In this document: piece after piece, positions 6,500-51,753 of the stretch
How positions within the stretch are numbered: position 1 is the first letter of the stretch
Layout: each line of letters opens with the position of its first letter
Origin: Halobacteriovoraceae bacterium
Lineage (GTDB): Bacteria > Bdellovibrionota > Bacteriovoracia > Bacteriovoracales > Bacteriovoracaceae
Assembly (NCBI GenBank): GCA_020635115.1
Contig: JACKAK010000004.1
Coordinates: 115,487 to 179,486 of the forward strand
Reading direction: 5' to 3'
Length of the DNA: 64,000 bases
Notes under the pieces: model-generated
Databases searched by the model: none
What the model saw: the letters and a program-made list of their open reading frames with translations, nothing else
Told to the model about the DNA's origin: nothing
Position numbers and translations under genes: made by a program

Positions 6500-6835
6500 T
6501 TGAAATTATATGGGATACCAAATTGTGACACTGTTAAAAAGGCCAAAGTACATTTAGAAAATAAAAATATTGACTATGAATTTGTTGATTTCAAAAAAAA
6601 TCCACCAACCAAAAAACTCATTAAAGAAGTTCAGCTGTTTTTAGGAGAACTTCCTGTGAATAGGAGAGGGACGACTTTTCGTAAAATTAAAGATATCTAT
6701 GAAGAAGCAAGTGAGAAAGAAAAAATTGAAATTTTAATTGTGAATTCATCTTCAATAAAAAGACCAATTCTTGTAAAAGATGAGAAAATTTGCGCTGTTG
6801 GATACGATGTCAATGAATACGATAGAATCCTTTGA
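6500..6835 (+). CDS. ArsC/Spx family protein (YffB-like)
   Basis: 111 aa. MKLYGIPNCDTVKKAKVHLENKNIDYEFVDFKK matches the thioredoxin-fold ArsC/Spx/YffB N-terminus with the conserved Cys. C-terminal IKRPILV motif. Confidence 0.8.
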   Translation: MKLYGIPNCDTVKKAKVHLENKNIDYEFVDFKKNPPTKKLIKEVQLFLGELPVNRRGTTFRKIKDIYEEASEKEKIEILIVNSSSIKRPILVKDEKICAVGYDVNEYDRIL

Positions 6836-30327: not shown

Positions 30328-32216
30328 AAAAACAGACTCTAGAATCGGCCTTAAAAAGAATGAGCTTGCTAGTCTTAGCAAGTGTACTTCTTATTGCAGG
30401 TTCAATTCATATGACTTTAGAGTTTGTTAATTTAAAGAATTTTTTCTTTAAACAACTTGAAACATCCGATCGTGTTTTGGTCAATAATATAATCTCTTCA
30501 CTGGTATTTGAAGATGTGAAGGATGCTGAAACACTAATTGTTAACTTTACACAAGTCTCAAATGCTGAAAATGTTCAAGTCTATGATTCTAATGGCAGAC
30601 TATTTTATTCTCATGGGGCAAAAGAAGAGTTTAGTCCTTCTGATTTTGAAAAAGGTGGAGAAATCATTTCTGATTTTAATAAGGTGGAGATAAGACAGAT
30701 CATTCAACATCAGAATTATACTATTGGTTATATAAAAGTTCGTCATAGATTAGATAATCTTCATAGGCTCCTACTAAGTCAGTCATTGATTTTTGGTATG
30801 GTCATTGTGTTCATTTTAATTCTTACAAATTTATTAATTTCTAGAATTACCGAGAGACTAACGAGACCATTAAAAAATCAAGTTAAAATATTAGAACAGA
30901 TTAAAGAAGAAAGAAATTTTGAATACAGACTATCTTCTAGTGAAGTAGAGAGGGGAATCAGTGAAATAGCACTTTTAGAACAGAGTATTAATAGCTTACT
31001 TATAGAGATCCAGGATAATTATGGAAAGTTAAAAGATGAAAAATTAGTTGCTGAAAAAGCTCTTGAGATTAGAAATCAATTTGTTAACAATATGTCTCAT
31101 GAAATACGCACACCGATGAATGTTATCATTGGCCTTTCAGAACTTCTTGAAGACGCAATTTTGAGTGAAGAACAGCAACATTACATGGAAATTTTTAGAA
31201 ATTCATGTGAATCTCTAATTTCTCTTGTCGATGTAATTTTAGACCTTTCTAGAATTGAAAGTGGAGAGTTTGATATCGAATTAGAGTTTTTTGATGTGGA
31301 TGAGACATTAAAAAACATTACAGAACTTTATAAATCAAATGCAGAAGCAAAAGGTTTATACATTGAGTATGAAACACATTGTAATATAGATTATCTCATA
31401 CGTTCAGACAAAGATCGATTAGCTCAAATTTTTATGAACCTAGTATCCAACGCAATAAAATTCACACATGTTGGAGGAGTTACAATATTAATAGAACAAA
31501 TGAATCTCGACAGAGACAGAGTAAAATTAAGATTTACAGTTAGAGATACTGGAATAGGTATCGGTAAAGATGATCTAGAAAAAATATTTGAAGATTTCTA
31601 TCAGACGGACTCTGGTCTAACCAGAAAATTTCAAGGATCTGGACTTGGACTTTCTATTTCCAGAAAAATAATTCATCTTATGGGGGGGAAAATCCATGCG
31701 AATAGCATTCCAGGAGCGTTTACTGAATTTATACTAGACATGTCTTTCGAATATGAAAAAAATGAGTCTCATCTTGGTCAATCTGGAATTCAAGACAAGC
31801 AACATAAAAGAAATCAATTGGATGACAGCAAAAAGAAAATTCTTGTTGTTGAAGACAATCTAGAAAACGTCGTTGTTTTAAAAACATATTTAAAAAAATG
31901 TCCTTATATAATTGAAGTCGCTGAAAATGGATTGAAAGGATTAGAAATGTTCAAAAAATTTAAATACGATTTAGTTCTCATGGATATTCAGATGCCTGTT
32001 ATGGATGGGCATACCTCAACTCAAAAAATGCGCGATTACGAGGCAAAAAATAATCTTGTACCAACTCTCATTTATGCTTTGACGGCCCATACAACTAAAA
32101 GTGATATTCTAAAATGTATCGAATCAGGATGTGATGGACATATTCCTAAACCAGTTCGAAAGAAACAAATCATAGAATTACTAGAAAATATACTTAATGA
32201 TCAGAAAGCTGCCTAA
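30324..32216 (+). CDS. hybrid sensor histidine kinase / response regulator
   Basis: Two TM helices flank a periplasmic segment of about 130 aa. H-box NMSHEIRTPMN, N-box LVSNAIKFT, G-boxes DTGIGIG and GSGLGLSI. Receiver domain LVLMDIQMPVMDG ... IPKP. Confidence 0.92.
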   Translation: MKKQTLESALKRMSLLVLASVLLIAGSIHMTLEFVNLKNFFFKQLETSDRVLVNNIISSLVFEDVKDAETLIVNFTQVSNAENVQVYDSNGRLFYSHGAKEEFSPSDFEKGGEIISDFNKVEIRQIIQHQNYTIGYIKVRHRLDNLHRLLLSQSLIFGMVIVFILILTNLLISRITERLTRPLKNQVKILEQIKEERNFEYRLSSSEVERGISEIALLEQSINSLLIEIQDNYGKLKDEKLVAEKALEIRNQFVNNMSHEIRTPMNVIIGLSELLEDAILSEEQQHYMEIFRNSCESLISLVDVILDLSRIESGEFDIELEFFDVDETLKNITELYKSNAEAKGLYIEYETHCNIDYLIRSDKDRLAQIFMNLVSNAIKFTHVGGVTILIEQMNLDRDRVKLRFTVRDTGIGIGKDDLEKIFEDFYQTDSGLTRKFQGSGLGLSISRKIIHLMGGKIHANSIPGAFTEFILDMSFEYEKNESHLGQSGIQDKQHKRNQLDDSKKKILVVEDNLENVVVLKTYLKKCPYIIEVAENGLKGLEMFKKFKYDLVLMDIQMPVMDGHTSTQKMRDYEAKNNLVPTLIYALTAHTTKSDILKCIESGCDGHIPKPVRKKQIIELLENILNDQKAA

Positions 32217-32329: not shown

Positions 32330-34039
32330 ATGGATAATGAACACAGAACTTTTTTTATAGGACCTCATTTTGAGAACTCTAAATTAACTCAACAAATGTG
32401 GAATAGCGTTTTAGATTATTATTCAAAACATAGACTCGACGTTTTCCAAAATGATCCCAAATGGCCTTTATGCGAAGACAATTTACAATCTATTGAAATT
32501 TTAAACTCTGCAATGGAAGAACTTCAAACAATGCTACAAAAAGAAGTTCCCACTTTTACTAAAAGATATATCGGACATATGCTCTCTGATTTCTCCTTAC
32601 CGGCCCTACTTGGACACATTTCAGTACTTCTTCATAATCCAAATAATGCTTCGAAAGAAGTTGCAAAAATAGGATCTTTTCTCGAAATTGAGGCCATAAA
32701 TCTTCTGTGTAAAATGGTTGGTTATGAAGTAAAACAAAGTAGAGGACACTTTACTTCATGTGGAACTTTGGCCAATTTTGAAGCAGTTTGGCGAGCTAGA
32801 TATAGAATGGATCATTTTTTATCGATGGCACTTTGTCTAGCAAAAAAATCTTTACTCGAAAAAAACTTATTTGAATACATGCACATGGGGTGGGACGAGT
32901 TTTATCGAATTCAAAACCATTATCAGATTTCAATTGAAGAACTAATGAAGTACTCTGCGACTGTAAAAGGACCTGCTGAAATTGCACGTATCTGTTCACA
33001 ATTAAATCTAAATTATCCATTGCCAGCTCTTTTAGTCCCAAGTAATTGTCACTATTCCTGGCCAAAGGCCATGAATCTATTTGGACTTGGTACAGAAGCA
33101 GTGATTAAAGTTAAAACTGACAAGAATGGACATGTATCAGTAACAGCACTACGTGATGAAATTAATAAATGTAAAAAGCAAAACAGACCAATACTAATGA
33201 TCACAAGTGTGGCCGGAACAACTGAGTTTGGTGGAATTGACCCTATTCATGATGTTGAGTCAATGCTTGAAGAATTTAAACCATTGCAATTCTGGCATCA
33301 CGTTGATGCAGCTTATGGAGGCTTTTTTTGTAGTCTCCTCGATCGGCCTAAAGAATCAATGCTCAGACTAGAAGTCATTAATGCTCTTCAAGCTCTAAGA
33401 AAAGTAGACTCAATCACAATTGATCCTCATAAACTAGGATATGTGCCTTACGCTTGTGGAGCAATTTTAACTAAAAATCCAGATAATTATATTGTTAGTC
33501 GAATAGATGCTCCTTACCTGATCCGTGATAAATATGTGGATCATCCAGGATGGTCTACCACAATTGAGGGATCGAGATCTGCCACTGGAGCAGGGGCCGT
33601 TTGGTTAAGCTCTCAATGTTTACCATTCAACTCAAATGGGCTTGGTACTATTTTAAAAAAAGGACTCAGAACAAAAATAATGCTAGAGAAAATTTTAACA
33701 GAGAATCTAGAAGAGATTTACTTTACCCCAACTGCAGATACAAATATTCTCTGTTTTTGCTTGGCCAAAAAAGGTCAAAGTCTGTCAGAGGTTAATAAAA
33801 GATCTCAAAAAATATTTGAGTTCTTTAGTGAAGGCCCTGATTTTGCTGTAAGTAAAACTATTTTAACCAAAGTTTCCTACGAAAAGTTAATCCTTCAAAT
33901 GATCAGCAATTGGGAAGGCGTTGATGATGATGAGAATTTATACGTTATAAGACTTGTACTTATGAGCCCTTATGCAGACGATGATGGCCAAACAAAAGAT
34001 CTCTATTTAAATTTTGCTGAATTCTTAAAAGACCTATAA
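32330..34039 (+). CDS. pyridoxal-phosphate-dependent decarboxylase, group II
   Basis: SITIDPHKLGYVPYACG (PLP-lysine motif), HVDAAYGG, and GTLANFEA upstream. Substrate not assignable by eye. Confidence 0.85.
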   Translation: MDNEHRTFFIGPHFENSKLTQQMWNSVLDYYSKHRLDVFQNDPKWPLCEDNLQSIEILNSAMEELQTMLQKEVPTFTKRYIGHMLSDFSLPALLGHISVLLHNPNNASKEVAKIGSFLEIEAINLLCKMVGYEVKQSRGHFTSCGTLANFEAVWRARYRMDHFLSMALCLAKKSLLEKNLFEYMHMGWDEFYRIQNHYQISIEELMKYSATVKGPAEIARICSQLNLNYPLPALLVPSNCHYSWPKAMNLFGLGTEAVIKVKTDKNGHVSVTALRDEINKCKKQNRPILMITSVAGTTEFGGIDPIHDVESMLEEFKPLQFWHHVDAAYGGFFCSLLDRPKESMLRLEVINALQALRKVDSITIDPHKLGYVPYACGAILTKNPDNYIVSRIDAPYLIRDKYVDHPGWSTTIEGSRSATGAGAVWLSSQCLPFNSNGLGTILKKGLRTKIMLEKILTENLEEIYFTPTADTNILCFCLAKKGQSLSEVNKRSQKIFEFFSEGPDFAVSKTILTKVSYEKLILQMISNWEGVDDDENLYVIRLVLMSPYADDDGQTKDLYLNFAEFLKDL

Positions 34040-34116: not shown

Positions 34117-35442
34117 ATGAACTCTGTAAATAAACTCTTTGATACTTTGTCGTATCTAAATCCTCGATCATTAAAGAGTCTATACGGACATATCATTGTC
34201 CTGGTAGAAACTAAACTGTGGGCAAAAGTTTTAGCTGGGATGCTCTTTGGTGTTTGTTTTGGAGTGATGTTATCAACTTCTGGCCCTTTGAGTAAACAAT
34301 TAGAAAATTACAATAGTTCAATAGAAACTCTTATGGCCTGGTTAGTATTTCCTGCAAAATTTTTTTTAAAACTAATTAAAATGGTCATTATCCCATTAAT
34401 CTTTTCTAGTATAATCCGTGGCCTCGCCTCTACAAACGATGTTACTCAAATGAAAAAATTAGGAATAAGATTTACAATTTTTGTTTTGGTCAACACAATT
34501 CTTGCCTCGCTCCTTGGAATTTTACTGACTTCATTTATTGGACCTGGAAGAGGATTATCCCTAAAGGCATCTGGAGTCATTTCTCAAAATGTAAGTGAGG
34601 GGAATATATTTTCTTTTGGGCCTGATACAATTTTAGAAATTATTCCCTTAAATCCACTTTCTTCATTTGTAGAAGGCCAGATGCTTGATGTCGTTATTTT
34701 ATCTATTATTGGTGGAATTGCTTTTTTATCCATTCAAAAAGATCAGGCCAAAAGTGTAATGGATATGTTAGAAGTCATTCAAGAAATTTGTATGACCGTC
34801 ATATCCTGGGCCATGAGATTGGCCCCCTATGCAGTGTTTGGTATGATGGCCCAAGTTACTTCCTCAACTGGTCTAAAGTCCTTACAAAATATGGCCATGT
34901 ATGTACTTGTTTGTTTCATAGGATTTATTTCATTTATTATTTTTTATTCTATTATAGTTTCAATTTTTAAAAGAATTTCACCACTTGAATTTTTAAAGAA
35001 ATCTTCCACAGCTATTTTACTTGCATTTTCAACATCATCTAGTGCGGCCACAATGCCAGTGTCTATGAAAATAGCTGAAGATGATCTAAAAGTTGATCCT
35101 TCTACGGCCAGGTTTTTGATACCCTTGGGAACTACTGTCAATATGGCCGGTTCTGCAATCTGGCATACCTCTGCAGTGATTTTTTTGAGTCAGGCCTATA
35201 ATATAAACTTATCTCTACCACAAATATCAATAGTCGTAGCGACTTCAATTGCAAGTGCAATAGGGAGCCCTGGTGTACCGGGTGTTGGTGTTGGGATCTT
35301 AGCATCTGTACTTGTTAAAGTTGGAGTACCGATCGAGGGTGTAAGCCTTATATTGGGTGTTGATAGGATAATTGACATGGGATGTACAACCGTGAACGTG
35401 GCCGGTGATTTAACGGCCAGTAAAATATTTAGCAAGATCTAA
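34117..35442 (+). CDS. dicarboxylate/amino acid:cation symporter (DAACS / GltP family)
   Basis: Polytopic membrane protein. SSSAATMPV and GTTVNMAGSA motifs and a DRIIDMGCTTVNVAGD C-terminal hairpin are typical of the SDF/DAACS family. Confidence 0.9.
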   Translation: MNSVNKLFDTLSYLNPRSLKSLYGHIIVLVETKLWAKVLAGMLFGVCFGVMLSTSGPLSKQLENYNSSIETLMAWLVFPAKFFLKLIKMVIIPLIFSSIIRGLASTNDVTQMKKLGIRFTIFVLVNTILASLLGILLTSFIGPGRGLSLKASGVISQNVSEGNIFSFGPDTILEIIPLNPLSSFVEGQMLDVVILSIIGGIAFLSIQKDQAKSVMDMLEVIQEICMTVISWAMRLAPYAVFGMMAQVTSSTGLKSLQNMAMYVLVCFIGFISFIIFYSIIVSIFKRISPLEFLKKSSTAILLAFSTSSSAATMPVSMKIAEDDLKVDPSTARFLIPLGTTVNMAGSAIWHTSAVIFLSQAYNINLSLPQISIVVATSIASAIGSPGVPGVGVGILASVLVKVGVPIEGVSLILGVDRIIDMGCTTVNVAGDLTASKIFSKI

Positions 35443-35993
35443 CGAATTGAGGCCGTATATTCTTCAAGATCTTCTCCAAGTTCTTTAATAATGAGAGCAC
35501 TCAATTTATAATCGTTTCCAGTGAGAAACAAATCAATTTTAGAACCACCTAAAGAAACATTTATCTCAAATTGGATATTTTCATTTGACCTTGACTTGAA
35601 ATTACGAATTATTTTTTTTACTTTTCTCTCTAAAACCTCTTTTGAAAACTCAGGAACTATTTCTTCGGCCATATGACTAATTGTAATCGTTACAGCGTTC
35701 CACTGCGAAGATGAAATCTCAAATTTGATGATATCTTCTATTTTTAAGTCTTGAGAAAGATTAAGTTTAGTTTTCTCTCCAATTGTTTCAATTGAAGAAA
35801 GGTAGGAGTTTAAGACCGTGGATTTTTCGCGAACAGTTAATGAATCTAAGCTTCTACCACTTATCATGAACTCCATACAAGCATTGGCAATACTTGGAGT
35901 AAAACCAATAGCTTCACTTGCAAATGTACTGTTTAAAAATAAGTAAGAAATTATGAAGAATATTTTTTTCACTATTGTCCTAATTAAATTCAC
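35439..35993 (-). CDS. secreted hypothetical protein
   Basis: N-terminal hydrophobic signal. Convergent with the transporter gene (4-nt overlap). Confidence 0.45.
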   Translation of the reverse strand: MNLIRTIVKKIFFIISYLFLNSTFASEAIGFTPSIANACMEFMISGRSLDSLTVREKSTVLNSYLSSIETIGEKTKLNLSQDLKIEDIIKFEISSSQWNAVTITISHMAEEIVPEFSKEVLERKVKKIIRNFKSRSNENIQFEINVSLGGSKIDLFLTGNDYKLSALIIKELGEDLEEYTASIR

Positions 35994-36223
35994 TAAAGAA
36001 ATTGGAGCTTTATCAATACAATTGAGCTATGTTATTATATATAAACAAATTTTGCTAATAACTAAATTGACCCCATGCGTTTTTGATGAAAATTTTTTAT
36101 TCCCTTTGTTAAGCTTATCGTTTTAGTTAAAATAATTATTTGCCAAGTACTAAGAGTAGTTGGAAAAGAGAAGAAGAGTAGATAAAATCATCACAATGTT
36201 GAAATCAAGAAAAGGTTAGAAAG

Positions 36224-36931
36224 TTGAGTGTAAAGTTAAATGTTAATATGAAAAATCAACCTGATTATACGACTTGTGGCCCTACAAGTTTGCATGCAGT
36301 TTATTCTTTCTATAATGATAAAATAGGCCTGGAGCAAATTGTTGATGATATTAATCAATTTGATCAAGGAGGCGGAACACTTGCCGTAATATTAGGTAAG
36401 CATGCGATCAAAAGAGGTTATCATGCTACAATGTTTTGTTTTAATATAAAAGTTTTTGATCCTTCTTGGTTTGAAAAAGGAAACGATTTTATTCGGAAGT
36501 GTATCAATAAGAGCATTGATACAGGAAAAATGTCAGAAAAAAGACTTTTTACACTTAAGGAGTATGAGGAGTACTTAAGATTTGGGGGAGATTTAAAGTT
36601 TAGAGATCTTTCTCAAGAATTATTAAAATCTGTTCTAGATACTAAAGTACCAATTTTAACAGGGTTAAGTTCTACTTGGCTCTATAGAGATAAAAGAGAG
36701 GACCCAATAAAAAATGAATATGACGACATCTTGGGATCACCTGCTGGGCATTTTGTTATCATTGATGGATATGAAAACAACGGGCAGTTTTCCATATGTG
36801 ATCCCTATCAAAAGAATCCAATAAATTCTACGAATCATTACTTAATTAACGGAGATAGGTTGATAAACTCTATATTATTGGGAATATCTTCCTATGATGG
36901 AAATCTACTTATAATTGAGAAAAAGAAATGA
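36224..36931 (+). CDS. papain-fold cysteine peptidase (C39-like)
   Basis: Candidate catalytic Cys in PDYTTCGPTSLHAVY, and His/Asp in PAGHFVIIDGYENNGQFSICDPY. TTG start; ATG at 36248 is an alternative. Confidence 0.55.
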   Translation: MSVKLNVNMKNQPDYTTCGPTSLHAVYSFYNDKIGLEQIVDDINQFDQGGGTLAVILGKHAIKRGYHATMFCFNIKVFDPSWFEKGNDFIRKCINKSIDTGKMSEKRLFTLKEYEEYLRFGGDLKFRDLSQELLKSVLDTKVPILTGLSSTWLYRDKREDPIKNEYDDILGSPAGHFVIIDGYENNGQFSICDPYQKNPINSTNHYLINGDRLINSILLGISSYDGNLLIIEKKK

Positions 36932-38388
36932 ATAAAAACATTATTATAGTGAACGATTCACTTGTAGAAAAATTCAAAAAATCAGGAGCTCTTGTTAGAA
37001 GTCCTATGGATTATATTCTGGGAGAATTTGAAAGAGATAAGAAATACCATATATTTAATCTCTCTTCGAATATGGGCTATCAAGAGAAAGGTTATTATGT
37101 ATCCTTACTTGCGGAGGCCAGAAAAGATAAAATATTTCCTTCGGCCAGATGTATTCAAGATTTGAATGACAAACGTATAAATAAAGTTTTATCTGAAGAT
37201 ATTAATACACTCACTCAGGCAAATCTAAGAAATATAAAATCAGACAAATTTGAATTAAGTATATATTTTGGAAAAAATATCACCTCTTCTTATAACAAAC
37301 TATCTTGGGAGTTATTTCGATTAGTCCAGGCCCCATTATTTAGAGTGTTTTTTGAAAAAAAGAATTCCTGGGAAATAAAGAAGATTTCACTACTTAGGCC
37401 TTCAGAAATTAGTGAATACCATTTGGATTTTTTAATTGAATCATCCAAAAATTATTTTGAAGAAGGGAAGTTTAGCAGATCCAGCAATAGTAAATACAAA
37501 TATGATCTCGCAATTCTGTATGATGAAAACGAGGTCTATCCCCCAAGTGACAAGAAAGCAATTAAAAACTTTGTTAATGCATTTCAGAAAAATGGGATTA
37601 AAACATATTTAATCCAAAATAGTGAAAAACCAGATATCAATAATTATGATGCACTATTTATTCGTGAAACTACAAATGTAACTCATCATACATATAGACT
37701 CTCAAGAAGTGCAGAAATTGAAAGATTAGTTGTTATAGATGATCCTGACTCAATTGTTCGTTGTACAAATAAAATTTACCTTGAACAATTACTAGAAAGA
37801 TTAAAAATTAAACGCCCTAGAACAATCATATTAGATCCTAAGAAGTATGCAAAAGGACATTGGGAAATTAAATTTCCATGCGTTATTAAAAAACCAGATT
37901 CAGCGTTTTCTCAAGGAGTTCACAAAGCAAGTACAGTTGAAGAACTCGATAACATCGCAAAAGAGCTTTTTAAAAAAACTGAACTACTACTTATCCAGGA
38001 ATACGTACCTACAGACTTCGATTGGAGGGTTGGAATTTTAAATGGTGAAATCTTGTACGTATGTAAATACTTTATGGCCAAGGGACATTGGCAAATTATC
38101 AACAATAAGGATGGAAAGTTTGATGAGGGGGGATTTGAATGTATTGATCCTATCAGTGCACCTGAAAAAGTCATCAAAATTGCTCTTAAAGTTGCAAGTG
38201 AAATTGGAATTGGACTTTACGGTGTAGATCTAAAGCAAAAAGGTGAAGATATTTATTTTATAGAGATCAATGATAACCCAAGTATAGAGGCCGGTGTCGA
38301 AGACAAACTTTTGGGGGACGAACTTTATGATAGGGTTGCAAAATTCTTTTTGAGAGAATGTAATAGAAAAAGAGGAATTCATGTCTGA
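36928..38388 (+). CDS. RimK-type ATP-grasp ligase with about 200-aa N-terminal extension (RLAN-like)
   Basis: C-terminal half: FPCVIKKPDSAFSQGV, LLIQEYVPTDFDWRVGILNGE, GLYGVDLKQKGEDIYFIEINDNPS are RimK/ATP-grasp motifs. The N-terminal 200 aa have no catalytic motif. Confidence 0.85.
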   Translation: MNKNIIIVNDSLVEKFKKSGALVRSPMDYILGEFERDKKYHIFNLSSNMGYQEKGYYVSLLAEARKDKIFPSARCIQDLNDKRINKVLSEDINTLTQANLRNIKSDKFELSIYFGKNITSSYNKLSWELFRLVQAPLFRVFFEKKNSWEIKKISLLRPSEISEYHLDFLIESSKNYFEEGKFSRSSNSKYKYDLAILYDENEVYPPSDKKAIKNFVNAFQKNGIKTYLIQNSEKPDINNYDALFIRETTNVTHHTYRLSRSAEIERLVVIDDPDSIVRCTNKIYLEQLLERLKIKRPRTIILDPKKYAKGHWEIKFPCVIKKPDSAFSQGVHKASTVEELDNIAKELFKKTELLLIQEYVPTDFDWRVGILNGEILYVCKYFMAKGHWQIINNKDGKFDEGGFECIDPISAPEKVIKIALKVASEIGIGLYGVDLKQKGEDIYFIEINDNPSIEAGVEDKLLGDELYDRVAKFFLRECNRKRGIHV

Positions 38389-39580
38389 TCATTTTGAATT
38401 ATTTTCAGTTTATGGCATAGAAGCAGAGTACATGATCGTTGATAAAGACTCCCTAAAAGTGAGAGCGATCGCTGATGAAATCTTAAAAGAATTAAACCAT
38501 GGAGAGATTTGCAATGAGGTTGATCTAGGCAAAGTGAGTTGGTCGAATGAATTAGTAAATCATGTGCTAGAAATAAAATGTACAGAACCTGAGTCATCTT
38601 TAAAAGATTTAGATATTGTTTTCCATAGGTCAGTGAAAGAAGTCCAAAAATTGTTAGATAAATGGAATTCTACTCTTATGCCCACGGCCATGAATCCATG
38701 GTTTGATCCTTTCAAAGAAACTGTTTTATGGCCTCATGGACAGCAAGAGATTTACAATCTTTATAATCAAATTTTTGACTGCAAAGGACATGGATGGTCA
38801 AATCTACAGTCTATACATATAAATCTTCCTTATAAAAATGAAGTAGAATTTATTAAATTGCATTCAGCTATCAGGTTAATTCTTCCACTCATCCCGTATT
38901 TTGCGGCCAGTTCACCATTTTATGAAAACAAGAAACAAAGGTATGCTGATAATAGATTGGCCTTCTATGAGAAAAATCAGGCCAAGGTTCCTTCAATCAT
39001 TGGTAATATTATTCCAGAAAATGTTAAGTCATTTAATGATTATGAGAATATTTTGAAAGGAATTTATCAAGATATAGATCAGTATGATCCTACAAAAACA
39101 CTTCAAAATCCTTGGCTCAATTCCAGGGCCGCAATACCCAAATTTGATGTCGGAGCTATTGAGATACGTTTAATGGACATTCAAGAATCCCCTTATATGG
39201 ATTATGTCATTATTAATCTTATTGTTGAAATGGTTAAGTTTATCTGTGAAAAAGGTAACAATTTTAAAAATGAAAAAAATTTCTCTGATAGATATTTAAG
39301 AGAAGTATATGACCAGTCAAAAGAATTTTCTCCTACATGCAATCTTGATAATTATTTTAATTTGCTTGAAATAAACTCAGAAGAAAAAACATTTGAAGAA
39401 CTTAGAAAAAAAATTATTGAGAAATTTTCAAGCGATATGGATAAAAGATATGCTCGAGGATTGAACATTTTAAAAGAAAGTGGATCTTTAGCGCAAAGGT
39501 TAGTGAAAAATAATCTATCAACCCAAATGTATAAAGATTTAATTCTTTGTCTAAATGAAAATATACCCTATGAAATCTAA
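38381..39580 (+). CDS. carboxylate-amine ligase, glutamate-cysteine ligase family 2 (GCS2/YbdK-like)
   Basis: YGIEAEYMIVD, VLEIKCTEP, IHINLP, AASSPF and AIEIRLMD follow the GCS2 motif order. Confidence 0.8.
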   Translation: MSDHFELFSVYGIEAEYMIVDKDSLKVRAIADEILKELNHGEICNEVDLGKVSWSNELVNHVLEIKCTEPESSLKDLDIVFHRSVKEVQKLLDKWNSTLMPTAMNPWFDPFKETVLWPHGQQEIYNLYNQIFDCKGHGWSNLQSIHINLPYKNEVEFIKLHSAIRLILPLIPYFAASSPFYENKKQRYADNRLAFYEKNQAKVPSIIGNIIPENVKSFNDYENILKGIYQDIDQYDPTKTLQNPWLNSRAAIPKFDVGAIEIRLMDIQESPYMDYVIINLIVEMVKFICEKGNNFKNEKNFSDRYLREVYDQSKEFSPTCNLDNYFNLLEINSEEKTFEELRKKIIEKFSSDMDKRYARGLNILKESGSLAQRLVKNNLSTQMYKDLILCLNENIPYEI

Positions 39581-40235
39581 GGTTATTATTAGCTGTGAGC
39601 ATGGGGGAGCAGAAATCCCCAAGTTTTTAAATTCATCTGTAAAGATTCCCAAAAACGTTTTAGAAAGTCATCGTGGGCTAGATAAAGGTGCACTTGATAT
39701 TGCAAAAAAATTGGGCAAAAAAATTCGATCAACGCCGATTTTAAATAAAATGACTCGACTAGTGATTGATTTTAATCGGTCACTACATAATTATAATGTT
39801 TTTAGCAAATTTTCTAAAAATCTTGATAATATATTGAAAGAAAAGTTAATTGAATTACATTCAAAACATAGAGCTAAGATTTTCAAACAAATTTCAAAAA
39901 ATACCATTCATCTATCAGTTCATTCATTTACACCTAAGATGAATGGAGTGATGAGAAACTGTGAATTCTCTATTCTTTTTGATCCAAAGAGAGCGGATGA
40001 GAGACATTTGGCCCTTGAAATAAAAAAGAAATTATCTAAATTAGGTATAAAGTGTAGATTTAACTACCCTTACTTGGGAAAATCTGATGGGGTAACAACT
40101 CATTTTCGAAAAATATTCTTAGAAGGCTATCTCGGACTAGAGCTTGAGTTTAATCAAAGAATTGTTAACCATAAAAATAAGGTTGAGACGATACTAGATG
40201 TTGTATGTGAATCTTCAAATGAATTTAAATTTTAG
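39555..40235 (+). CDS. N-formylglutamate amidohydrolase (FGase) family hydrolase
   Basis: IISCEHGGAEIP, LVIDFNRS and VHSFTP are FGase-family (PF05013-type) metal-site motifs. ATG at 39570 is an alternative start. Confidence 0.8.
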   Translation: MKIYPMKSKVIISCEHGGAEIPKFLNSSVKIPKNVLESHRGLDKGALDIAKKLGKKIRSTPILNKMTRLVIDFNRSLHNYNVFSKFSKNLDNILKEKLIELHSKHRAKIFKQISKNTIHLSVHSFTPKMNGVMRNCEFSILFDPKRADERHLALEIKKKLSKLGIKCRFNYPYLGKSDGVTTHFRKIFLEGYLGLELEFNQRIVNHKNKVETILDVVCESSNEFKF

Positions 40236-40246: not shown

Positions 40247-41302
40247 CTAAAACCATTTCTTCTTTTTAAAGATAAAAAGAAGTGTTACTCCTGTGAAAAA
40301 TAAAAGACCCAAGAGATAAAAATAACCATATTGCCACTTAAGTTCAGGCATATATTCAAAATTCATCCCGTATATTCCAGTGATGAAGGTAAGTGGAATA
40401 AAGATTGAAGCAAAAACGGTTAAGTATTTCATGACACTATTCATTTTATTATTGATGGAGGAAAGATGCATTTCAATAAGTCCAGAGACAATGTCGCGAA
40501 TTGTTTCAACTGATTCATAAATTTGTATACAATGATCATGTACGTCACGAAAATAAAGCGAAGTTTTTTCACTGATAAAAGGGTGTTCATCACGATTTAG
40601 TGCGGAGATAAAATCTCTGACCGGAGAAATCACTCTACGAATGTAGAGAAGTTCTTTTTTTAGCCAATGGATATCTTGAATAGTATTTTTGTTTTCTTCA
40701 ATTTTATCTTCAATTTGTTCTAATTCAATTTCTAATCTATCAATAACTTTGAAATACTCATCAACGACTGAATCAATCAGACAGTAAAATAAGTAATCAG
40801 GGCCCATTTTGCGGATTCTGCCCTTGTTCTGATGAATTCTTTCTCGAATACTGTTAAATACATCTCCCGGAAATTCTTGAAATGTGACTACTAAATTTTC
40901 TAGTAGGATGATGCTCAGTTGATCTTTTGTGAAAGTTTCTTCATTTTCATCGAAAACAATCATTTTTAACGTGGCGAAAATATACTCATCTGTGATTTCA
41001 ACTTTTGGTCTCTGAGTAGTATTTAAAATATCCTCAGTAATTAAGGGATGAATATTGAAAAAATCTCCGACTGTTCTGATAAGTTCTACATCATGTACTC
41101 CATCTATATTGACCCAAGAAATCGATCTATTTGTTAAAGTACTTGTGCAATCTAGAATATTGTCAATTGAAACTCTCTTTGAGTTTTCTTCATCATATTC
41201 TATAAGTTCAATTTGAACTTTTGTGCTTGGAGATTGATTTCCAACGTATACAAGGCTCCCTGGGACCATTCCTGACTTATCAGATTTTTTTTCAACTTTC
41301 AT
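40247..41302 (-). CDS. corA: magnesium/cobalt transporter CorA
   Basis: C-terminal YGMNFEYMPEL (GMN motif) between two TM helices. Size 351 aa. Confidence 0.92.
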   Translation of the reverse strand: MKVEKKSDKSGMVPGSLVYVGNQSPSTKVQIELIEYDEENSKRVSIDNILDCTSTLTNRSISWVNIDGVHDVELIRTVGDFFNIHPLITEDILNTTQRPKVEITDEYIFATLKMIVFDENEETFTKDQLSIILLENLVVTFQEFPGDVFNSIRERIHQNKGRIRKMGPDYLFYCLIDSVVDEYFKVIDRLEIELEQIEDKIEENKNTIQDIHWLKKELLYIRRVISPVRDFISALNRDEHPFISEKTSLYFRDVHDHCIQIYESVETIRDIVSGLIEMHLSSINNKMNSVMKYLTVFASIFIPLTFITGIYGMNFEYMPELKWQYGYFYLLGLLFFTGVTLLFIFKKKKWF

Positions 41303-41534: not shown

Positions 41535-44500
41535 ATGATATTTTTGAGAAAAAATAGATTTATTGAATTTTGCATAATTACTTCGACTATTTTCTTTTTT
41601 TCTACCAGTTCCTATTCAAGCACATGTAGGAATTCAGAAATTCAAAAAAAATACGAAATTGTCTCAGATAATTTTTTGAAAGAATCAGAAAAAATCCATA
41701 AATTATTAGTTGGTGAAAAAGTAGAAAATTATACGATTCAATCCATATTTGGAATTGATTTTGATGTAAAAAAAACGGATGAATACATTCAAAAACAAAT
41801 TAGTATAATTCAAGACCAAGAGGGAGTTTTTTTAGAAAACAAAACTCTATCCGAGTGCTTAGTTCAATTAGGTAAAAATGAGCAAAATAAAAAGCTCAAA
41901 GAATTGACAGTAAACTTAATCAATCAGAAGATTGAGCTTTTAAAAAGAAATCAAACTCTTAACGATACTTTACGTGAATCTCATATTACTGAAAGTACAT
42001 TACCTGAAATTAGAGAGAAAATAGACAGAGATTCAGCTCAAGCTCGAATTGTAAAAGAAAACCTAGAAGATTCCCTAATCAAAAAACAAAGTGAAACTTT
42101 TAAAGAAAAAAGTACTAAAAAAAGAGAAGTTCTAGAATATGAAAATACTTTAACAAAAATTAAAATCGAATTACTTAATTTAAAAATTGAAATAAACTCA
42201 GGCCTTGAAATCAAAATCAATCAATTTGAAAAATCAACCTCTGAGATTAGAGAGATAGCAAAACAAATTGAAGATAAAGATACTAAAGCATTAATTCAAA
42301 ATTTTGAAGAAATTGAGAAAATCTGGCTTTCATTGGCCAGTGAAGATTACTTTAATCTTTTTAGCGCAAATATCTCTTTAAAACTACCTCAAATCCCTGA
42401 AAGTCTCAATCAAGACAAATTTAAAGACGACATCTCTGATTCTATCAAACTCAGAGATGAAATCATTCTTTTAAGAAAAGAAATTATAAAAAATTATTCA
42501 GATAAAATAAACCAAGAACTACGACTTCTCAATCACCTTGTTGCAAGTAGTAATTCAATTAGAGAAAATATTTTCAGAAAGTTAGGGAGTTCTTTTTTCT
42601 TCAAATCACTTTTAAAATTTCAATCTTATAAAATGATAAAAAATGAAGTGAGCTCTGCTCCCTATAGAGCTGTTAGTTTTATTTATTCAAAATATCTCGC
42701 TTTTAGAGAACAACTTTCTTTAGGAAAGGAAGGTATTTTGACTTTGATGACTAAATTATTTTCACTCATAATATTAGCAATTTCTTTTTTTTCATTAAGA
42801 TATTTATTTAATAAAACGAATGAAAACGTAGATAAAATTTTTAAATATTTATTTGAAAGGAAAATTCGTTCATTCATTATAAGGAAGCTTTTCATTATTT
42901 GGAATAAAATAAAAGACAGTACTGTGCCTATTTTATGGTTAATAGTATTGGCCATCTATCAAAAATATCGTCCAGACAATGGTCTTAGTTTAATAATAAG
43001 GGCCTTGGAAGTATACTTGGTTTCTATAATATTAAAATCAATGTTAACAATATTTTTAGGGACAATTTCAAGGTTAGATATTGCAAATTTCTCAAAATTT
43101 AAAATAAAGGCCAATGAGACATCGAATAAGTTTAAAAATATTTTTCTTTTCTATTTTTTTACCATGATTATTATTGAGGCCACTATTGGTAAGGTTTACC
43201 TTTATACAATACTAAATTACTTTGTACTCATCTACTCCCTATTTCTTTTCTTTAACGAAACCTCTCATTGGGAAAATGAGTTTAGAAAATACTCAGAAAA
43301 AATGTTCTCAGGGATAATTGTAGAAAAATATTTTAGATTTTTAGATTTATGTCCTTCAAAGTTGAGGGCATCTTTTTTATTTGTATTTATTATTTTACTT
43401 ATTTTTTTCGATATTATTATTGGGCTTACTGAGAATTTTGAAATTTCAAAAAAAATATCGGCCAATCTCTTTAAAAAACAAATTGAAAAAATTGAAGCTG
43501 AAGATGGTGCTGATGATAAAATACCATCGAGTTATAAAGAACAATTTTCCTTTAAATCAATATCATCAGAAGATGAGTATGTTACAAATGGACAAGGTCT
43601 TGAAGAAAAAATTATTTTAGAAATTGATGAATGGTTAGATGATAGGTCTGATGAACATTCATTAGTGGTTTATGGGGACAAGGGAATTGGTAAAACGACT
43701 TTACTAAAAAAAGTTGGATCTACTCTGGAAAAGAGTGATAGATTAAATGTTAAATATACAAAAATGCCTGCTAAAACAGTTTCACTAGAAGCAATGAACA
43801 GTTTTTTATATTCAATATTTTTTAATGAGGCAACTACTCAAAGTTTGCATCTCTATGAATTTGACCAAAAACTTGAAAAAAATACAGTCGTGATTATAGA
43901 CGAATGCCAGAATCTATTTTTATCACATACTGGAGGATTTGAGGCCTATTATTTATTGATAAATCTTATAAATCTTAATACTGAAAAAATATTTTGGATA
44001 ATGTCATTTAATAAATATAGCTGGCTATATTTAGATCGGGCATTTGGTAGAAATCAATTTTTCAGAAATGTTTTTGAATTACAAGGATGGAGTGATTCAG
44101 CAATAAAAGATTTAATAATGAAACGGCATGTAAAAACAGGCGTAAAACTTTCTTTTGACTTGTTAATTAGTGCAACCAGATCACAAGATGAGATAGATAA
44201 GTATTCCTCAATCGAATCGAAATTTTTTAAATTACTTTGGGAATTATCTAGGGGAAATCCAAGGGCAGCGCTCTATTTGTGGATGTCGGCGCTTTCAAGA
44301 AAAAGTAAAAACGTATTTAATGTTTATATCCCAAAAGAATCAGGGCTTGATGGTATTGAGAAAATGCCTGATGAATTAATGTTTGTCATCGCACATGTTT
44401 TAAAACACGAGAACCTTTCGTCTTCTGAAATTGAGATGACAACGAACCTTCAAAAGGGTCTTGTTCGTAACGCCATAAAACTTGCTCTTGAGAAGAAGTT

Positions 44501-51634: not shown

Positions 51635-51753
51635 GGCCCACCTCCAGATATTCGTTAAGCCCATTATACAATAAATATAACGCAAAATCCTCTAGTAGAG
51701 ATTACCTAACTATTCGATTGTTTGATGATGAGAAGGTCAAAAACCGCGAATCT

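What the first reader, a model, noticed from the sequence alone, without database searches (positions are those of the whole stretch)
36224..40235. Four-gene amide-bond cassette: C39-like peptidase, RLAN-type RimK ATP-grasp, GCS2 ligase, FGase amidohydrolase
Four same-strand genes are packed with overlaps of 4 nt at 36928-36931, 8 nt at 38381-38388 and up to 26 nt at 39555-39580. They combine two mechanistically distinct ATP-dependent carboxylate-amine ligases: a RimK-like ATP-grasp with a 200-aa N-terminal extension, and a GCS2/YbdK-like enzyme. They also include two amide-bond hydrolases: a papain-fold Cys peptidase and an FGase-family metallo-amidohydrolase. Every characterised relative acts on glutamate or gamma/alpha-glutamyl linkages. 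The cassette looks like a ribosome-independent system that builds and trims a glutamate-containing peptide or adds a peptide tag to a protein. As far as I recall, similar ATP-grasp plus GCS2 plus FGase neighbourhoods have been noted in comparative-genomic surveys of amidoligases. I know of no established product, substrate or phenotype.
Basis: partly seen in the sequence, partly recalled or inferred. Interest (0 to 1): 0.75.

Follow-up and report, generated by a model that had tools for sequence, protein, structure and literature searches.

The report
Orphan four-gene glutamyl-peptide ligase operon
This is a real four-gene operon, conserved across many bacterial phyla including Legionella, that pairs two different ATP-dependent amide-bond ligases with two amide-bond hydrolase-type enzymes; it most likely makes and trims a small glutamate-containing peptide whose identity and purpose nobody has yet determined.

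Summary
Four same-strand, overlapping genes at 36224-40235 encode:
- a papain-fold C39_2-like Cys enzyme
- an RLAN+RimK ATP-grasp ligase
- a divergent GCS2 carboxylate-amine ligase
- an FGase-family amidohydrolase of the uncharacterised Atu2144 subgroup

All predicted catalytic residues are invariant in the families. All four proteins look cytosolic.

The same gene order occurs in 44 of 80 genome loci holding an RLAN-RimK gene. These include Bdellovibrionota, Bacteroidota, Legionella and Planctomycetota. It also occurs in Leptospira and Nitrospirota contigs. No fifth conserved gene, precursor ORF or riboswitch was found.

A second operon type replaces GCS2 and FGase with a GNAT acetyltransferase. 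It keeps a homologous papain-like domain (DUF3335). So RLAN-RimK plus a papain-like enzyme is the stable core, and the "N-acylating" partner is interchangeable.

None of the four proteins reaches any curated equivalog threshold, and I found no paper that characterises the cassette. P. aeruginosa PA1345, a stand-alone RLAN-RimK, is still listed as hypothetical.

Best reading: a ribosome-independent pathway that makes a gamma-Glu-X-Glu-type peptide, with dedicated trimming or transfer enzymes. Recurrent adjacency to MscS/MscL channels hints at an osmolyte role.

It is a new member of a previously noted but unsolved operon class.

The parts
36224..36931 (+). Papain-fold C39_2-like cysteine enzyme (235 aa; alternative start ATG 36248 gives 227 aa). 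Predicted Q12/C18/H176/D193 active site, plus a helical insert of about 60 residues (residues ~80-140) not present in the ~140-residue C39 peptidase domains it matches.
   Evidence: Pfam Peptidase_C39_2 E 6.4e-10. Q12, C18, H176 and D193 are invariant in 40-54 homologues. AF2 model pLDDT 91. Best PDB fold matches are C39 double-glycine peptidase domains 6mpz and 3k8u (TM 0.76 by target), then PeiR, xylellain and CtaG. hhalign to the DUF3335 domain of GNAT-DUF3335 proteins: probability 87%, E 3.9e-6. No TM segment or signal peptide.
36928..37485 (+). RLAN domain (residues 1 to ~186) of the ATP-grasp protein. It carries the invariant motif N44-L45...Y51-Q52..G55-Y-Y-V-S-L-L-A-x-A-R65...P71. Its function is unknown.
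   Evidence: Pfam RLAN E 6e-39. Invariant columns. Profile search of PDB sequences finds nothing credible (best E 0.12). Among the 150 representatives listed of 394 clusters, the full-length hits are either ~490-aa RLAN-RimK proteins or ~650-aa proteins with an N-terminal extension; 654-aa homologues in the loci are GNAT-RLAN-RimK fusions.
37495..38388 (+). RimK-type ATP-grasp ligase module (residues ~190-486) of the same 486-aa protein.
   Evidence: Pfam RimK E 5e-11. Foldseek best matches are RimK (5zk6, 7qys) and ArgX/LysX (3vpb, 5k2m) at E ~1e-15. K282, K321, R367, D434, E446 and N448 are invariant. R246, R367 and N448 align with the RimK_PA poly-Glu contacts R64, R189 and N262 (PMC10092738). 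Below the curated cutoffs for rimK_fam (64 vs 143) and for the S6-Glu ligase (23 vs 331).
38381..39580 (+). Divergent GCS2-family carboxylate-amine ligase (399 aa) with the GhExE signature (G12-I-E14-A-E16).
   Evidence: Pfam GCS2 E 1e-16, covering profile positions 2-191 of 291. E14, E16, E57, H61, E64, H146, E261 and R263 are invariant in 29-56 homologues. The GhExE signature is as defined in PMC2588565. No NCBIfam equivalog is reached (44.7 vs 371). The family profile hits no PDB sequence at E 0.01.
39555..40235 (+). FGase-family metallo-amidohydrolase of the Atu2144 subgroup (226 aa; more likely 221 aa from ATG 39570). Basic protein, pI 9.9.
   Evidence: Pfam FGase E 1e-12. Family profile vs PDB: 2odf (Atu2144, unknown function) E 7.7e-33; true FGase 2q7s only E 7.7e-4. 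C14, E15, H16, H39, D43, H119, H123, E196 and E198 are invariant. No NCBIfam hit. pI and absence of TM segments.
35994..36223 (+). 230-nt AT-rich intergenic region upstream of the operon; the likely promoter region.
   Evidence: Sigma-70-like matches, for example 36160-36188 (TTGGAA-17-TAAAAT), but the number of such matches in the region does not exceed shuffled controls. No Rfam match at E 0.1. The only small ORF (35953-36126, 57 aa) is hydrophobic and low-complexity, and no small ORF of 60 aa or more is conserved elsewhere.

Best explanation
The cassette is a self-contained cytosolic, ribosome-independent pathway for a small glutamate-containing peptide.

Proposed steps (all inferred from family chemistry):
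1. [quoted passage not shown] This gives gamma-Glu-X.
2. The RLAN-RimK ATP-grasp activates the free alpha-carboxylate of that intermediate and adds L-Glu, possibly more than once. This gives gamma-Glu-X-Glu(n).
3. The FGase-like Zn amidohydrolase, whose family cleaves N-acyl-L-glutamate, removes the C-terminal Glu. This provides length control or turnover.
4. The papain-fold Cys enzyme forms a thioester with the peptide. It then either hydrolyses it or transfers the acyl part to another amine, as phytochelatin synthase, BtrH and CtaG do.

The order of steps 1 and 2 is not established.

Shown here: gene structure, family membership, intact active sites, cytosolic location, cross-phylum synteny, and the interchangeable GCS2/GNAT partner. 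Inferred: substrates, product, order and role.

The physiological role is most plausibly a stress-related or anionic compatible solute, but this is held with low confidence (about 0.25).
For: Operon and enzymes:
- Four overlapping co-directional genes, with family assignments above Pfam cutoffs.
- Invariant catalytic residues in all four families, including the GhExE signature.
- The RimK-like fold, and the conserved Arg/Arg/Asn that contact poly-Glu in Pseudomonas RimK.

Conservation:
- All four genes in the same order in 44 of 80 loci, and a partial set (three of the four, or two on a contig cut at both ends) in 14 more. These span Bdellovibrionota, Bacteroidota, Legionella (including L. pneumophila), Planctomycetota, Desulfobulbaceae, Ignavibacteria and Fibrobacterota, plus Leptospira, Nitrospirota and Acidobacteriota.
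- No further conserved gene of 60 aa or more, and no carrier protein, precursor peptide, ABC exporter or Pup-like ORF.
- No TM segments or signal peptides.

Variant operons:
- They replace GCS2 and FGase by a GNAT. The GNAT is fused to RLAN-RimK, adjacent to it, or fused to a DUF3335 papain-like domain homologous to the window's C39-like protein.
- This parallels known GNAT + ATP-grasp routes to N-acetyl-dipeptides, such as Ngg/NAGGN, whose operon also contains a peptidase (PMC8070244).

Osmolyte hint:
- MscS genes lie directly next to the cassette in L002, L018 and L065, and about 500 nt downstream on the same strand in L063.
- They lie within about 5 kb in L031, L038 and the window. MscL lies nearby in Acidobacteriota.
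- Glu/Asp transporters sit nearby in the window, in Solimonas and in P. aeruginosa.
Against: - No substrate, product or phenotype is known for any member.
- None of the four proteins reaches a curated equivalog threshold, so substrate predictions rest on distant family precedent only.
- RimK's own substrate is a protein (S6). PafA, a GCS2 relative, ligates a protein. A protein target encoded elsewhere is therefore not excluded.
- The channel adjacency covers only about 7 of roughly 85 loci and is not corrected for phylogeny. Legionella, Azospirillum and Pseudomonas are not halophiles.
- 7 loci with intact flanks lack FGase and 3 lack the C39-like gene, so the hydrolases are dispensable for the core chemistry.
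Confidence: 0.5

Rival explanations
1. A reversible protein or peptide C-terminal glutamylation system. RLAN-RimK adds Glu residues to the C-terminus of a protein encoded elsewhere, as RimK does on ribosomal protein S6. The FGase-like carboxypeptidase-type enzyme and/or the papain-like peptidase trim the tail, as RimB does in Pseudomonas or CCP deglutamylases do on tubulin. GCS2 adds a gamma-linked branch or cross-links the terminal Glu to a lysine, in the manner of PafA.
For: - The closest structures are RimK (including its complex with RpsF, 5zk6) and LysX/ArgX, which act on protein C-termini.
- Residues that contact poly-Glu are conserved.
- There is precedent for RimK with a dedicated partner protease that trims Glu tails (PMC10092738).
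- PafA derives from GCS2-like ligases and shares GhExE (PMC2588565).
- The GNAT partners in variant operons score close to the RimI model (81 bits vs cutoff 86).
- The extra, strongly conserved RLAN domain could be a protein-recognition module.
Against: - No candidate substrate, tag or carrier gene is conserved next to the cassette in 80 loci.
- The protein scores far below the S6-Glu ligase equivalog (23 vs 331 bits).
- The interchangeable GCS2/GNAT partner and the channel and transporter neighbours fit metabolite chemistry better.
- RLAN has no detectable similarity to known protein-binding domains.
Confidence: 0.2
2. A catabolic, salvage or detoxification module rather than a biosynthetic one. 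An amine or amino-acid analogue is gamma-glutamylated by GCS2, as in the Puu-type gamma-glutamylation pathways. It is then processed and released by the amidohydrolases. RLAN-RimK recycles or caps intermediates.
For: - GS/GCS-fold ligases paired with amidohydrolases are the logic of gamma-glutamyl amine utilisation pathways (established knowledge).
- Two hydrolase-type enzymes sit in a four-gene operon.
- Amino-acid transporters, ggt and PLP decarboxylases lie near some family members.
Against: - No oxidoreductase or aminotransferase step is conserved in the cassette.
- Two ATP-consuming ligases are costly for catabolism.
- No transporter is consistently linked.
Confidence: 0.12
3. A RiPP-like or thiotemplated natural-product pathway. 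The C39-like enzyme removes a leader peptide or transfers an acyl chain from a carrier protein, as in butirosin or closthioamide. The ATP-grasp acts on a peptide or carrier encoded elsewhere.
For: - C39 domains are leader peptidases, and CtaG/BtrH papain-fold enzymes work with ATP-grasp ligases and PLP decarboxylases (PMC7183216).
- A PLP decarboxylase lies about 2.2 kb upstream in the window.
Against: - No precursor peptide, PCP/ACP or ABC exporter is found in the window cassette or conserved in 80 loci.
- The decarboxylase is not found near the cassette in any other locus.
- The ATP-grasp is of RimK/LysX type, not the graspetide or BtrJ type.
Confidence: 0.05

Closest known systems
RimK / RimB (rimABK) ribosomal protein S6 poly-alpha-glutamylation system of E. 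coli and Pseudomonas
   Same: A RimK-type ATP-grasp fold and conserved Mg/ATP and Glu-contact residues. The ligase is encoded together with a dedicated hydrolase that would trim its product (PMC10092738).
   Different: - It has an extra 190-aa RLAN domain.
- It scores far below the S6-Glu ligase and rimK_fam thresholds.
- The partner is papain-fold or FGase-fold, not a retropepsin.
- A second ligase of a different fold is present.
- No link to rpsF is seen.
Glutathione / phytochelatin logic (GshA-type gamma-Glu-Cys ligase, ATP-grasp GshB, papain-fold phytochelatin synthase)
   Same: The same three enzyme folds in the same chemical roles: a GS/GCS-fold ligase, an ATP-grasp ligase, and a clan-CA Cys enzyme that acts on the tripeptide through a thioester (PMC10318531).
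   Different: - No GshA, GshB or YbdK equivalog threshold is met.
- The ATP-grasp is RimK-like, which predicts Glu rather than Gly as the added residue.
- The papain-like protein is C39_2/DUF3335-like, not Pfam Phytochelatin.
- There is no evidence that X is cysteine.
NAGGN osmolyte operon (asnO-ngg-PA3461), and mammalian NAAG synthesis (NAT8L + RIMKLA/B; the latter recalled from memory)
   Same: An N-acylating enzyme plus an ATP-dependent peptide ligase makes a small blocked acidic or amide dipeptide, with a peptidase in the operon (PMC8070244). The variant operons found here are GNAT-RLAN-RimK fusions.
   Different: - The window cassette uses GCS2 instead of GNAT.
- There is no AsnO-type amidotransferase.
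- The GNAT-RLAN-RimK fusion does not hit any Ngg model at E 1e-5.
Butirosin (BtrJ/K/H/G) and closthioamide (CtaD/F/G) assembly
   Same: An ATP-grasp ligase works with a C39/BtrH-like papain-fold enzyme that transfers acyl groups rather than merely hydrolysing. A removable gamma-glutamyl group is used in butirosin biosynthesis (PMC7183216). CtaG appears among the fold matches.
   Different: Those pathways are thiotemplated on a PCP/ACP and need a PLP decarboxylase. No carrier protein is present here, and the decarboxylase upstream in the window is not conserved.
Pupylation (PafA/Dop)
   Same: A GCS2-derived carboxylate-amine ligase with the GhExE signature, acting on a terminal glutamate, with a paired amidase (PMC2588565).
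   Different: No Pup-like small ORF and no proteasome or Mpa genes. The ligase is not PafA-like by any model.

Membership tests
Peptidase C39 / C39_2 (clan CA papain fold) | Pfam model above the gathering score | tested here: met
   Peptidase_C39_2 scores 40.2 bits against a cutoff of 24. Classical Peptidase_C39 scores 20.1 against 22, just below.
Peptidase C39 / C39_2 (clan CA papain fold) | Gln (oxyanion) - Cys - His - Asp/Asn catalytic residues in the canonical order | tested here: met
   Q12, C18, H176 and D193 are invariant in 40 database homologues and in at least 95% of 54 locus homologues.
Peptidase C39 / C39_2 (clan CA papain fold) | Papain-like / C39 three-dimensional fold | tested here: met
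   AF2 model pLDDT 91. Foldseek top hits are 6mpz, 3k8u and PCAT1 peptidase domains, probability 1.00, TM 0.76 by target.
Peptidase C39 / C39_2 (clan CA papain fold) | Functional context of classical C39: fused to or next to an ABC exporter, with a double-glycine leader substrate | tested here: not met
   No ABC transporter or precursor ORF in the window cassette or conserved across 80 loci.
RimK-family ATP-grasp alpha-L-glutamate ligases | Pfam RimK ATP-grasp domain and an ATP-grasp fold closest to RimK/LysX | tested here: met
   RimK scores 43 bits against 21. Foldseek gives RimK and ArgX/LysX at E ~1e-15.
RimK-family ATP-grasp alpha-L-glutamate ligases | Curated subfamily and equivalog thresholds (TIGR00768 rimK_fam; NF007764 S6-Glu ligase) | tested here: not met
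   64.3 against 143.4, and 23.1 against 331. It is a distinct RLAN-bearing branch.
RimK-family ATP-grasp alpha-L-glutamate ligases | L-glutamate as the amine substrate | not testable with these tools
   Indirect evidence only: R246, R367 and N448 align with the poly-Glu contacts R64, R189 and N262 of RimK_PA (PMC10092738).
RLAN-RimK amidoligase operon (conserved neighbourhood; I recall it being noted by Iyer et al. 2009, which I could not read) | An RLAN domain fused N-terminally to the RimK ATP-grasp | tested here: met
   RLAN scores 133.5 bits against 25, residues 33-171.
RLAN-RimK amidoligase operon (conserved neighbourhood; I recall it being noted by Iyer et al. 2009, which I could not read) | Conserved co-directional order: papain-like gene, RLAN-RimK, GCS2, FGase | tested here: met
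   44 of 80 loci carry all four genes in this order, and 14 carry a partial set of three or two. Also seen in Leptospira, Nitrospirota and Acidobacteriota.
GCS2 / YbdK carboxylate-amine ligases | Pfam GCS2 above threshold, and the GhExE Mg/ATP signature | tested here: met
   61.6 bits against 21. G12-I-E14-A-E16 is invariant. The signature is defined in PMC2588565.
GCS2 / YbdK carboxylate-amine ligases | Equivalog-level membership (YbdK, GshA-type glutamate-cysteine ligase, EgtA-like) | tested here: not met
   Best scores are 44.7 against 371 and 37.8 against 176.4. The family profile finds no PDB sequence at E 0.01.
GCS2 / YbdK carboxylate-amine ligases | Gamma-glutamyl:cysteine ligase activity | not testable with these tools
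   Needs an enzyme assay.
N-formylglutamate amidohydrolase (FGase, HutG) | Pfam FGase above threshold, with conserved metal and acid-base residues | tested here: met
   49 bits against 28.9. E15/H16, H39, D43, H119, H123, E196 and E198 are invariant.
N-formylglutamate amidohydrolase (FGase, HutG) | Orthology to a true HutG-type N-formylglutamate amidohydrolase | tested here: not met
   No NCBIfam hit. The family profile matches 2odf (Atu2144, function unknown) at 7.7e-33, but the annotated FGase 2q7s only at 7.7e-4. No hut genes lie nearby.
NAGGN pathway (Ngg/AsnO) | A bifunctional GNAT-ligase Ngg plus an AsnO amidotransferase | tested here: not met
   No GNAT or Asn-synthase-type gene in the window cassette. 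No Ngg-type model was hit, even by the GNAT-RLAN-RimK fusions.
Pup-like protein tagging | A small tag ORF ending in Gln/Glu next to the ligase | tested here: not met
   No conserved additional ORF of 60 aa or more in 80 loci. The only small ORF upstream in the window is a non-conserved hydrophobic 57-mer. ORFs under 60 aa in other loci were not searched systematically.
Known anti-phage defence systems | A match to PADLOC models | tested here: not met
   No hit for any of the four proteins or the flanking genes.

The most novel reading that the evidence does not exclude
The cassette is a new prokaryotic protein-tagging or protein-editing system. RLAN-RimK appends glutamate to the C-terminus of a protein encoded elsewhere. 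The PafA-like GCS2 ligase joins that terminal Glu to a lysine or amine. The papain-fold enzyme acts as the processing or de-conjugating peptidase, and the FGase-like enzyme trims the Glu tail. This would be a Pup- or tubulin-code-like system spread across at least ten phyla, including Legionella. A less radical novel reading, with probability of about 0.25, is a previously unknown glutathione/phytochelatin-like gamma-Glu-X-Glu metabolite or a new class of peptide osmolyte.
Probability: 0.1. Interest if true: 0.85.

Novelty: new member of a known kind. Interest (0 to 1): 0.55.

Why it matters
The operon sits in dozens of species across at least ten phyla, including the pathogen L. pneumophila. 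Its core enzyme family also includes P. aeruginosa PA1345. Yet neither the product, the substrate nor a phenotype is known, and three of the four proteins fall in subfamilies with no characterised member.

Solving it would do three things:
- assign function to thousands of database proteins (at least 8000 RLAN-RimK hits)
- define what the RLAN domain does
- probably reveal a new glutamyl peptide, which could be an osmolyte, a thiol-like cofactor or a protein modification

This work also shows that GCS2 and GNAT are interchangeable partners around a constant RLAN-RimK + papain-like core. That gives a concrete, testable chemical hypothesis: N-acyl-X plus Glu.

Tried and rejected
- **Iyer et al. 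2009 amidoligase survey.** I tried to read it (PMC3268129, PMID 20023723). It is not held, so the claim that the neighbourhood was noted before rests on my recollection. It also rests on indirect citation in PMC10318531 and PMC4431377.
- **Literature searches.** Searches for RLAN, PF14401, DUF3335, PA1345, Legionella plus RimK/FGase, and RimK plus carboxylate-amine ligase found no characterisation.
- **Upstream PLP decarboxylase (32330-34039) and SDF symporter (34117-35442).** I considered them as part of the system, on the butirosin/closthioamide model. Rejected: no decarboxylase homologue was found near any of the 80 loci, and an SDF homologue in only one.
- **Precursor peptide or riboswitch upstream.** None found.
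- **Defence system.** No PADLOC hit.
- **RLAN fold.** The full-length model's Foldseek hits were all ATP-grasp domains. A profile search of PDB sequences gave only noise. The fold remains unassigned.
- **GCS2 profile against PDB.** No hit.
- **Neighbour census of 140 flanking proteins.** No dominant partner family.
- **NAGGN/Ngg membership of the GNAT fusions.** Not supported.
- **Plasmid search.** The 'plasmid' hits are chromids or mis-assigned chromosomal pieces, so there is no evidence that the cassette is plasmid-borne.

Full report
**1. Observation**

The ORF scan gives four + strand ORFs at exactly the stated coordinates: 36224-36931, 36928-38388, 38381-39580 and 39555-40235. They overlap by 4, 8 and 26 nt.

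Pfam confirms every assignment above its gathering score:
- Peptidase_C39_2 (40.2 bits)
- RLAN (133.5 bits, residues 33-171) plus RimK (43 bits, residues 281-455)
- GCS2 (61.6 bits)
- FGase (49 bits)

Two refinements on start codons:
- The FGase gene more likely starts at ATG 39570. This gives MKSKVIISCEH, as in homologues and in NCBI's 221-aa model, and an 11-nt overlap.
- NCBI starts the first gene at ATG 36248 (227 aa). Conservation of the preceding residues in homologues favours the TTG at 36224.

The window comes from a Halobacteriovoraceae MAG. The four proteins are MCB9061294-97, annotated generically as C39 family peptidase, RimK family protein, glutamate--cysteine ligase and N-formylglutamate amidohydrolase. 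G+C across the cassette (0.30-0.32) matches the window, so nothing suggests recent acquisition.

**2. The four proteins**

*C39-like protein.*
- Q12, C18, H176 and D193 are invariant in 40-54 homologues.
- An AlphaFold2 model (pLDDT 91) matches C39 double-glycine peptidase domains best: 6mpz, 3k8u and PCAT1, with TM 0.76 normalised to the target.
- Next come the pseudomurein endoisopeptidase PeiR, xylellain and cathepsins. The closthioamide transacylase CtaG is also among the matches.
- It carries a helical insert of about 60 residues that the ~140-residue C39 peptidase domains lack.

*ATP-grasp module (residues ~190-486).*
- It is structurally closest to RimK and ArgX/LysX (E ~1e-15).
- It keeps the Mg/ATP residues K282, K321, D434, E446 and N448.
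- R246, R367 and N448 align with R64, R189 and N262 of Pseudomonas RimK, which contact the bound poly-Glu chain (PMC10092738).
- It stays far below the curated thresholds for rimK_fam (64 vs 143 bits) and for the S6-glutamate ligase (23 vs 331).

*RLAN domain (residues 1 to ~186).*
- It is the most conserved part of the protein. Its motif is NLSxSYxYQxxGYYVSLLAxARGHKxxPS.
- It has no detectable relative in PDB sequences.
- Among the 150 representatives listed of 394 clusters, the full-length hits are ~490-aa RLAN-RimK proteins or ~650-aa proteins with an N-terminal extension; 654-aa homologues in the loci are GNAT-RLAN-RimK fusions.

*GCS2 protein.*
- It has the GhExE signature (G12-I-E14-A-E16) that defines carboxylate-amine ligases (PMC2588565).
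- Its metal and phosphate residues are invariant.
- It reaches no YbdK or GshA model, and its family profile finds no solved structure.

*FGase-like protein.*
- It belongs with Atu2144 (2odf, function unknown; E 7.7e-33).
- It is only remotely related to an annotated N-formylglutamate amidohydrolase (2q7s; E 7.7e-4).

*All four.* None has a TM segment or signal peptide. The RimK and FGase proteins are basic (pI 8.6 and 9.9), which would suit anionic substrates.

**3. Conservation and context**

A genome scan with the RLAN-RimK protein returned 80 loci. tblastn with the window proteins gives this breakdown:
- 44 loci with all four genes in the same order and strand
- 10 with C39 + RimK + GCS2 (3 of these end at a contig edge)
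- 3 with RimK + GCS2 + FGase
- 1 truncated fragment
- 22 with RLAN-RimK only

Carriers include Oligoflexia/Halobacteriovoraceae, many Bacteroidota (about 20 Pontibacter, plus Nafulsella and Cesiribacter), about 10 Legionella including L. pneumophila, Planctomycetota, Desulfobulbaceae, Ignavibacteria and Fibrobacterota. Contigs from Leptospira and Nitrospirota carry all four genes, and Acidobacteriota contigs carry three.

All-against-all clustering of every ORF of 60 aa or more in the 80 loci found no fifth conserved gene. The other recurrent clusters are antisense shadows of the four genes or are genus-specific. A Pfam census of 140 flanking proteins found no dominant partner. The upstream intergenic region holds no Rfam match and no credible precursor ORF. 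The cassette is therefore a self-contained four-gene module.

**4. A second operon type defines the core**

Where GCS2 and FGase are absent, RLAN-RimK comes with a GNAT acetyltransferase:
- fused to its N-terminus: 654-aa proteins in Gracilimonas and Balneolaceae (Balneolales) and in some Bacteroidales
- or encoded adjacent to it

In Saccharospirillum, and in an overlapping operon in Azospirillum, the partner gene encodes GNAT fused to a DUF3335 papain-like domain.

Profile-profile comparison shows that the window's C39-like family is homologous to that DUF3335 domain (probability 87%, E 3.9e-6). They share the QxxxxTCGP, GGT, LxSTW and HxV...DP motifs.

So the evolutionarily stable pair is RLAN-RimK plus a papain-like enzyme. 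The second amide-forming enzyme is either GCS2 or GNAT. On a rough NJ tree the GNAT-associated forms make separate clades among the cassette-type sequences.

P. aeruginosa PA1345 is a stand-alone RLAN-RimK. It lies next to the aatJQMP Glu/Asp transporter, ggt and an Orn/Lys/Arg-decarboxylase-family gene. Recent papers still list it as hypothetical.

**5. Mechanism**

The GCS2/GNAT swap suggests that both do the same job: acylating the amino group of a substrate X. GCS2 would add a gamma-glutamyl group and GNAT an acetyl group. RLAN-RimK would then extend the free carboxylate with L-Glu, as every characterised RimK-family enzyme uses Glu or a C-terminal Glu.

This mirrors known chemistry:
- Ngg makes N-acetylglutaminylglutamine, in an operon that also contains a peptidase (PMC8070244).
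- From memory, NAT8L plus RIMKLA makes N-acetyl-Asp-Glu in mammals.
- GshA plus GshB makes glutathione.

The FGase family cleaves N-acyl-L-glutamate, which is the bond type that RimK-type ligases make. It is therefore the natural trimming or turnover enzyme.

Clan-CA enzymes near C39 include true transacylases: phytochelatin synthase, BtrH and CtaG (PMC10318531; PMC7183216). The Cys enzyme may therefore transfer rather than merely hydrolyse.

I propose a gamma-Glu-X-Glu(n) product with dedicated editing enzymes, at confidence about 0.5. The order of the ligations and the identity of X are open.

**6. Possible role**

Mechanosensitive channel genes recur beside these operons:
- MscS directly upstream in L002
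- two MscS genes plus CorA directly downstream in L018
- MscS directly downstream in L065
- MscS plus CorA downstream of a GNAT-RLAN-RimK gene in L063
- MscS about 5 kb away in L031 and L038
- in the window, MscS at 44590-45417 and CorA convergent at 40247-41302
- MscL upstream in Acidobacteriota

Such channels are the release valves for cytoplasmic solutes on osmotic down-shift (PMC5924519). I recall that an mscS gene is co-transcribed with the ect genes in Nitrosopumilus (Widderich et al. 2016), but I could not verify this in the held text.

With MscS-family genes making up roughly 0.1-0.2% of genes in a typical genome (my estimate), four immediate adjacencies among about 50 independent loci is more than expected. 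The sample is small, however, and not corrected for phylogeny.

Glu/Asp transporters near the window cassette, in Solimonas and at PA1345 fit glutamate as a substrate.

An osmolyte or stress-solute role is therefore a lead, at about 0.25, and not a finding.

**7. Rivals**

- *Protein C-terminal glutamylation with trimming* (RimK/RimB-like, PafA-like) remains possible, at 0.2. The structural neighbours act on proteins, and RLAN could be a recognition domain. No substrate gene is linked, however.
- *A catabolic gamma-glutamylation route* (0.12) lacks any conserved redox or transaminase step.
- *A RiPP or thiotemplated pathway* (0.05) lacks a precursor, carrier or exporter. The PLP decarboxylase upstream in the window is not conserved elsewhere.
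- *Defence function* has no support.

**8. Novelty and score**

As far as I recall, this neighbourhood class was described by comparative genomics (Iyer et al. 2009). That paper could not be read here. PMC10318531 cites it for the DUF3335-GNAT fusions.

NCBI already annotates the four genes generically. The window copy is thus a new member of a known, bioinformatically described but experimentally unsolved operon class. I found no characterisation of product, substrate or phenotype in NCBIfam, PDB or the held literature.

What this analysis adds:
- a cross-phylum census
- the intact active sites
- the RLAN-RimK + papain-like core with interchangeable GCS2/GNAT partners
- placement of the FGase-like protein in the Atu2144 subgroup
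- the channel adjacency

Interest is 0.55. It would not surprise a specialist, but it is a well-defined, widespread orphan pathway that is directly testable.

Noticed in passing
window 40247-41302 (-) and 44590-45417 (+); L002:6352-7191; L018:11391-14464; L063:10014-11894; L065:11481-12416; L085:3411-3935: Mechanosensitive channel genes (MscS, MscL), and sometimes CorA, recur directly beside or within about 5 kb of RLAN-RimK operons. This holds in unrelated lineages and for both operon types. It may link the product to osmotic solute handling.
   Followed up: partly
L060:7518-9482, L063:7518-9485, L072:7521-9485; L064:6424-7527(-); L083:4775-6001 and 6001-7482: A second operon type exists. It has GNAT-RLAN-RimK fusion proteins (654 aa), or a GNAT+DUF3335 (papain-like) fusion gene next to or overlapping RLAN-RimK (Saccharospirillum, Azospirillum). 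The DUF3335 domain is homologous to the window's C39-like protein.
   Followed up: yes
L083:2029-4773 (+): In Azospirillum a 914-aa ORF with no Pfam match ends 2 nt before the GNAT-DUF3335 gene starts, in the same operon as RLAN-RimK. It may be an additional, unknown component of the variant system.
   Followed up: no
L081:6797-8386 (P. aeruginosa PA1345 region): PA1345 is a stand-alone RLAN-RimK protein (529 aa). It lies beside the aatJQMP Glu/Asp ABC transporter, ggt and an Orn/Lys/Arg-decarboxylase-family gene. Papers from 2024-2025 still list it as hypothetical, and one reports a predicted Cpx box upstream.
   Followed up: partly
window 32330-34039 (+) and 34117-35442 (+): A 569-aa group II PLP-dependent amino-acid decarboxylase (weak matches to Tyr/Asp/DABA decarboxylase models) and a GltP/DctA-like sodium:dicarboxylate symporter lie just upstream of the cassette. 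They are not conserved with it in other loci.
   Followed up: partly
window 41535-44600 (+): A 1021-aa protein with about five hydrophobic segments and a C-terminal AAA/STAND-like P-loop domain (AAA_22, residues 705-819). It has no NCBIfam or PADLOC match, and its function is unknown.
   Followed up: no
window 45695-48493 (+) and 48496-49425 (+): Two consecutive large ORFs (932 and 309 aa) with no Pfam match at E 1e-5.
   Followed up: no
window 49422-50393 (-) and 50402-51685 (-): A radical-SAM protein and a lysine-2,3-aminomutase-like protein (LAM_C domain, 427 aa) lie in tandem. This may be beta-lysine formation, for an osmolyte or for EF-P modification.
   Followed up: no
window 22401-23669 (-) and 24043-24990 (+): An ISL3-family transposase lies next to a radical SAM/SPASM maturase-type gene.
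   Followed up: no
window 29818-30327 (+) and 30324-32216 (+): A YfiR-like periplasmic protein overlaps a CHASE8 hybrid histidine kinase/response regulator. This is a YfiBNR-like signalling pair with a kinase in place of the diguanylate cyclase.
   Followed up: no
window 35439-35993 (-): A 184-aa ORF divergent from the cassette. It has a hydrophobic, signal-like N-terminus and no family match in Pfam, NCBIfam or PADLOC.
   Followed up: no
L017:6062-6610 and L017:11552-15844 (L. pneumophila): In L. pneumophila the cassette is preceded by a BON-domain (OsmY-like) protein and a DUF4442 protein. It is followed by a 1431-aa protein with no Pfam match, possibly an effector.
   Followed up: no
L059:9566-12130 (+): In one Balneolaceae genome the GNAT-RLAN-RimK gene is followed by an 854-aa M28-family peptidase. 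From memory, M28 is the family of the NAAG-hydrolysing glutamate carboxypeptidase II. This is a single occurrence.
   Followed up: no
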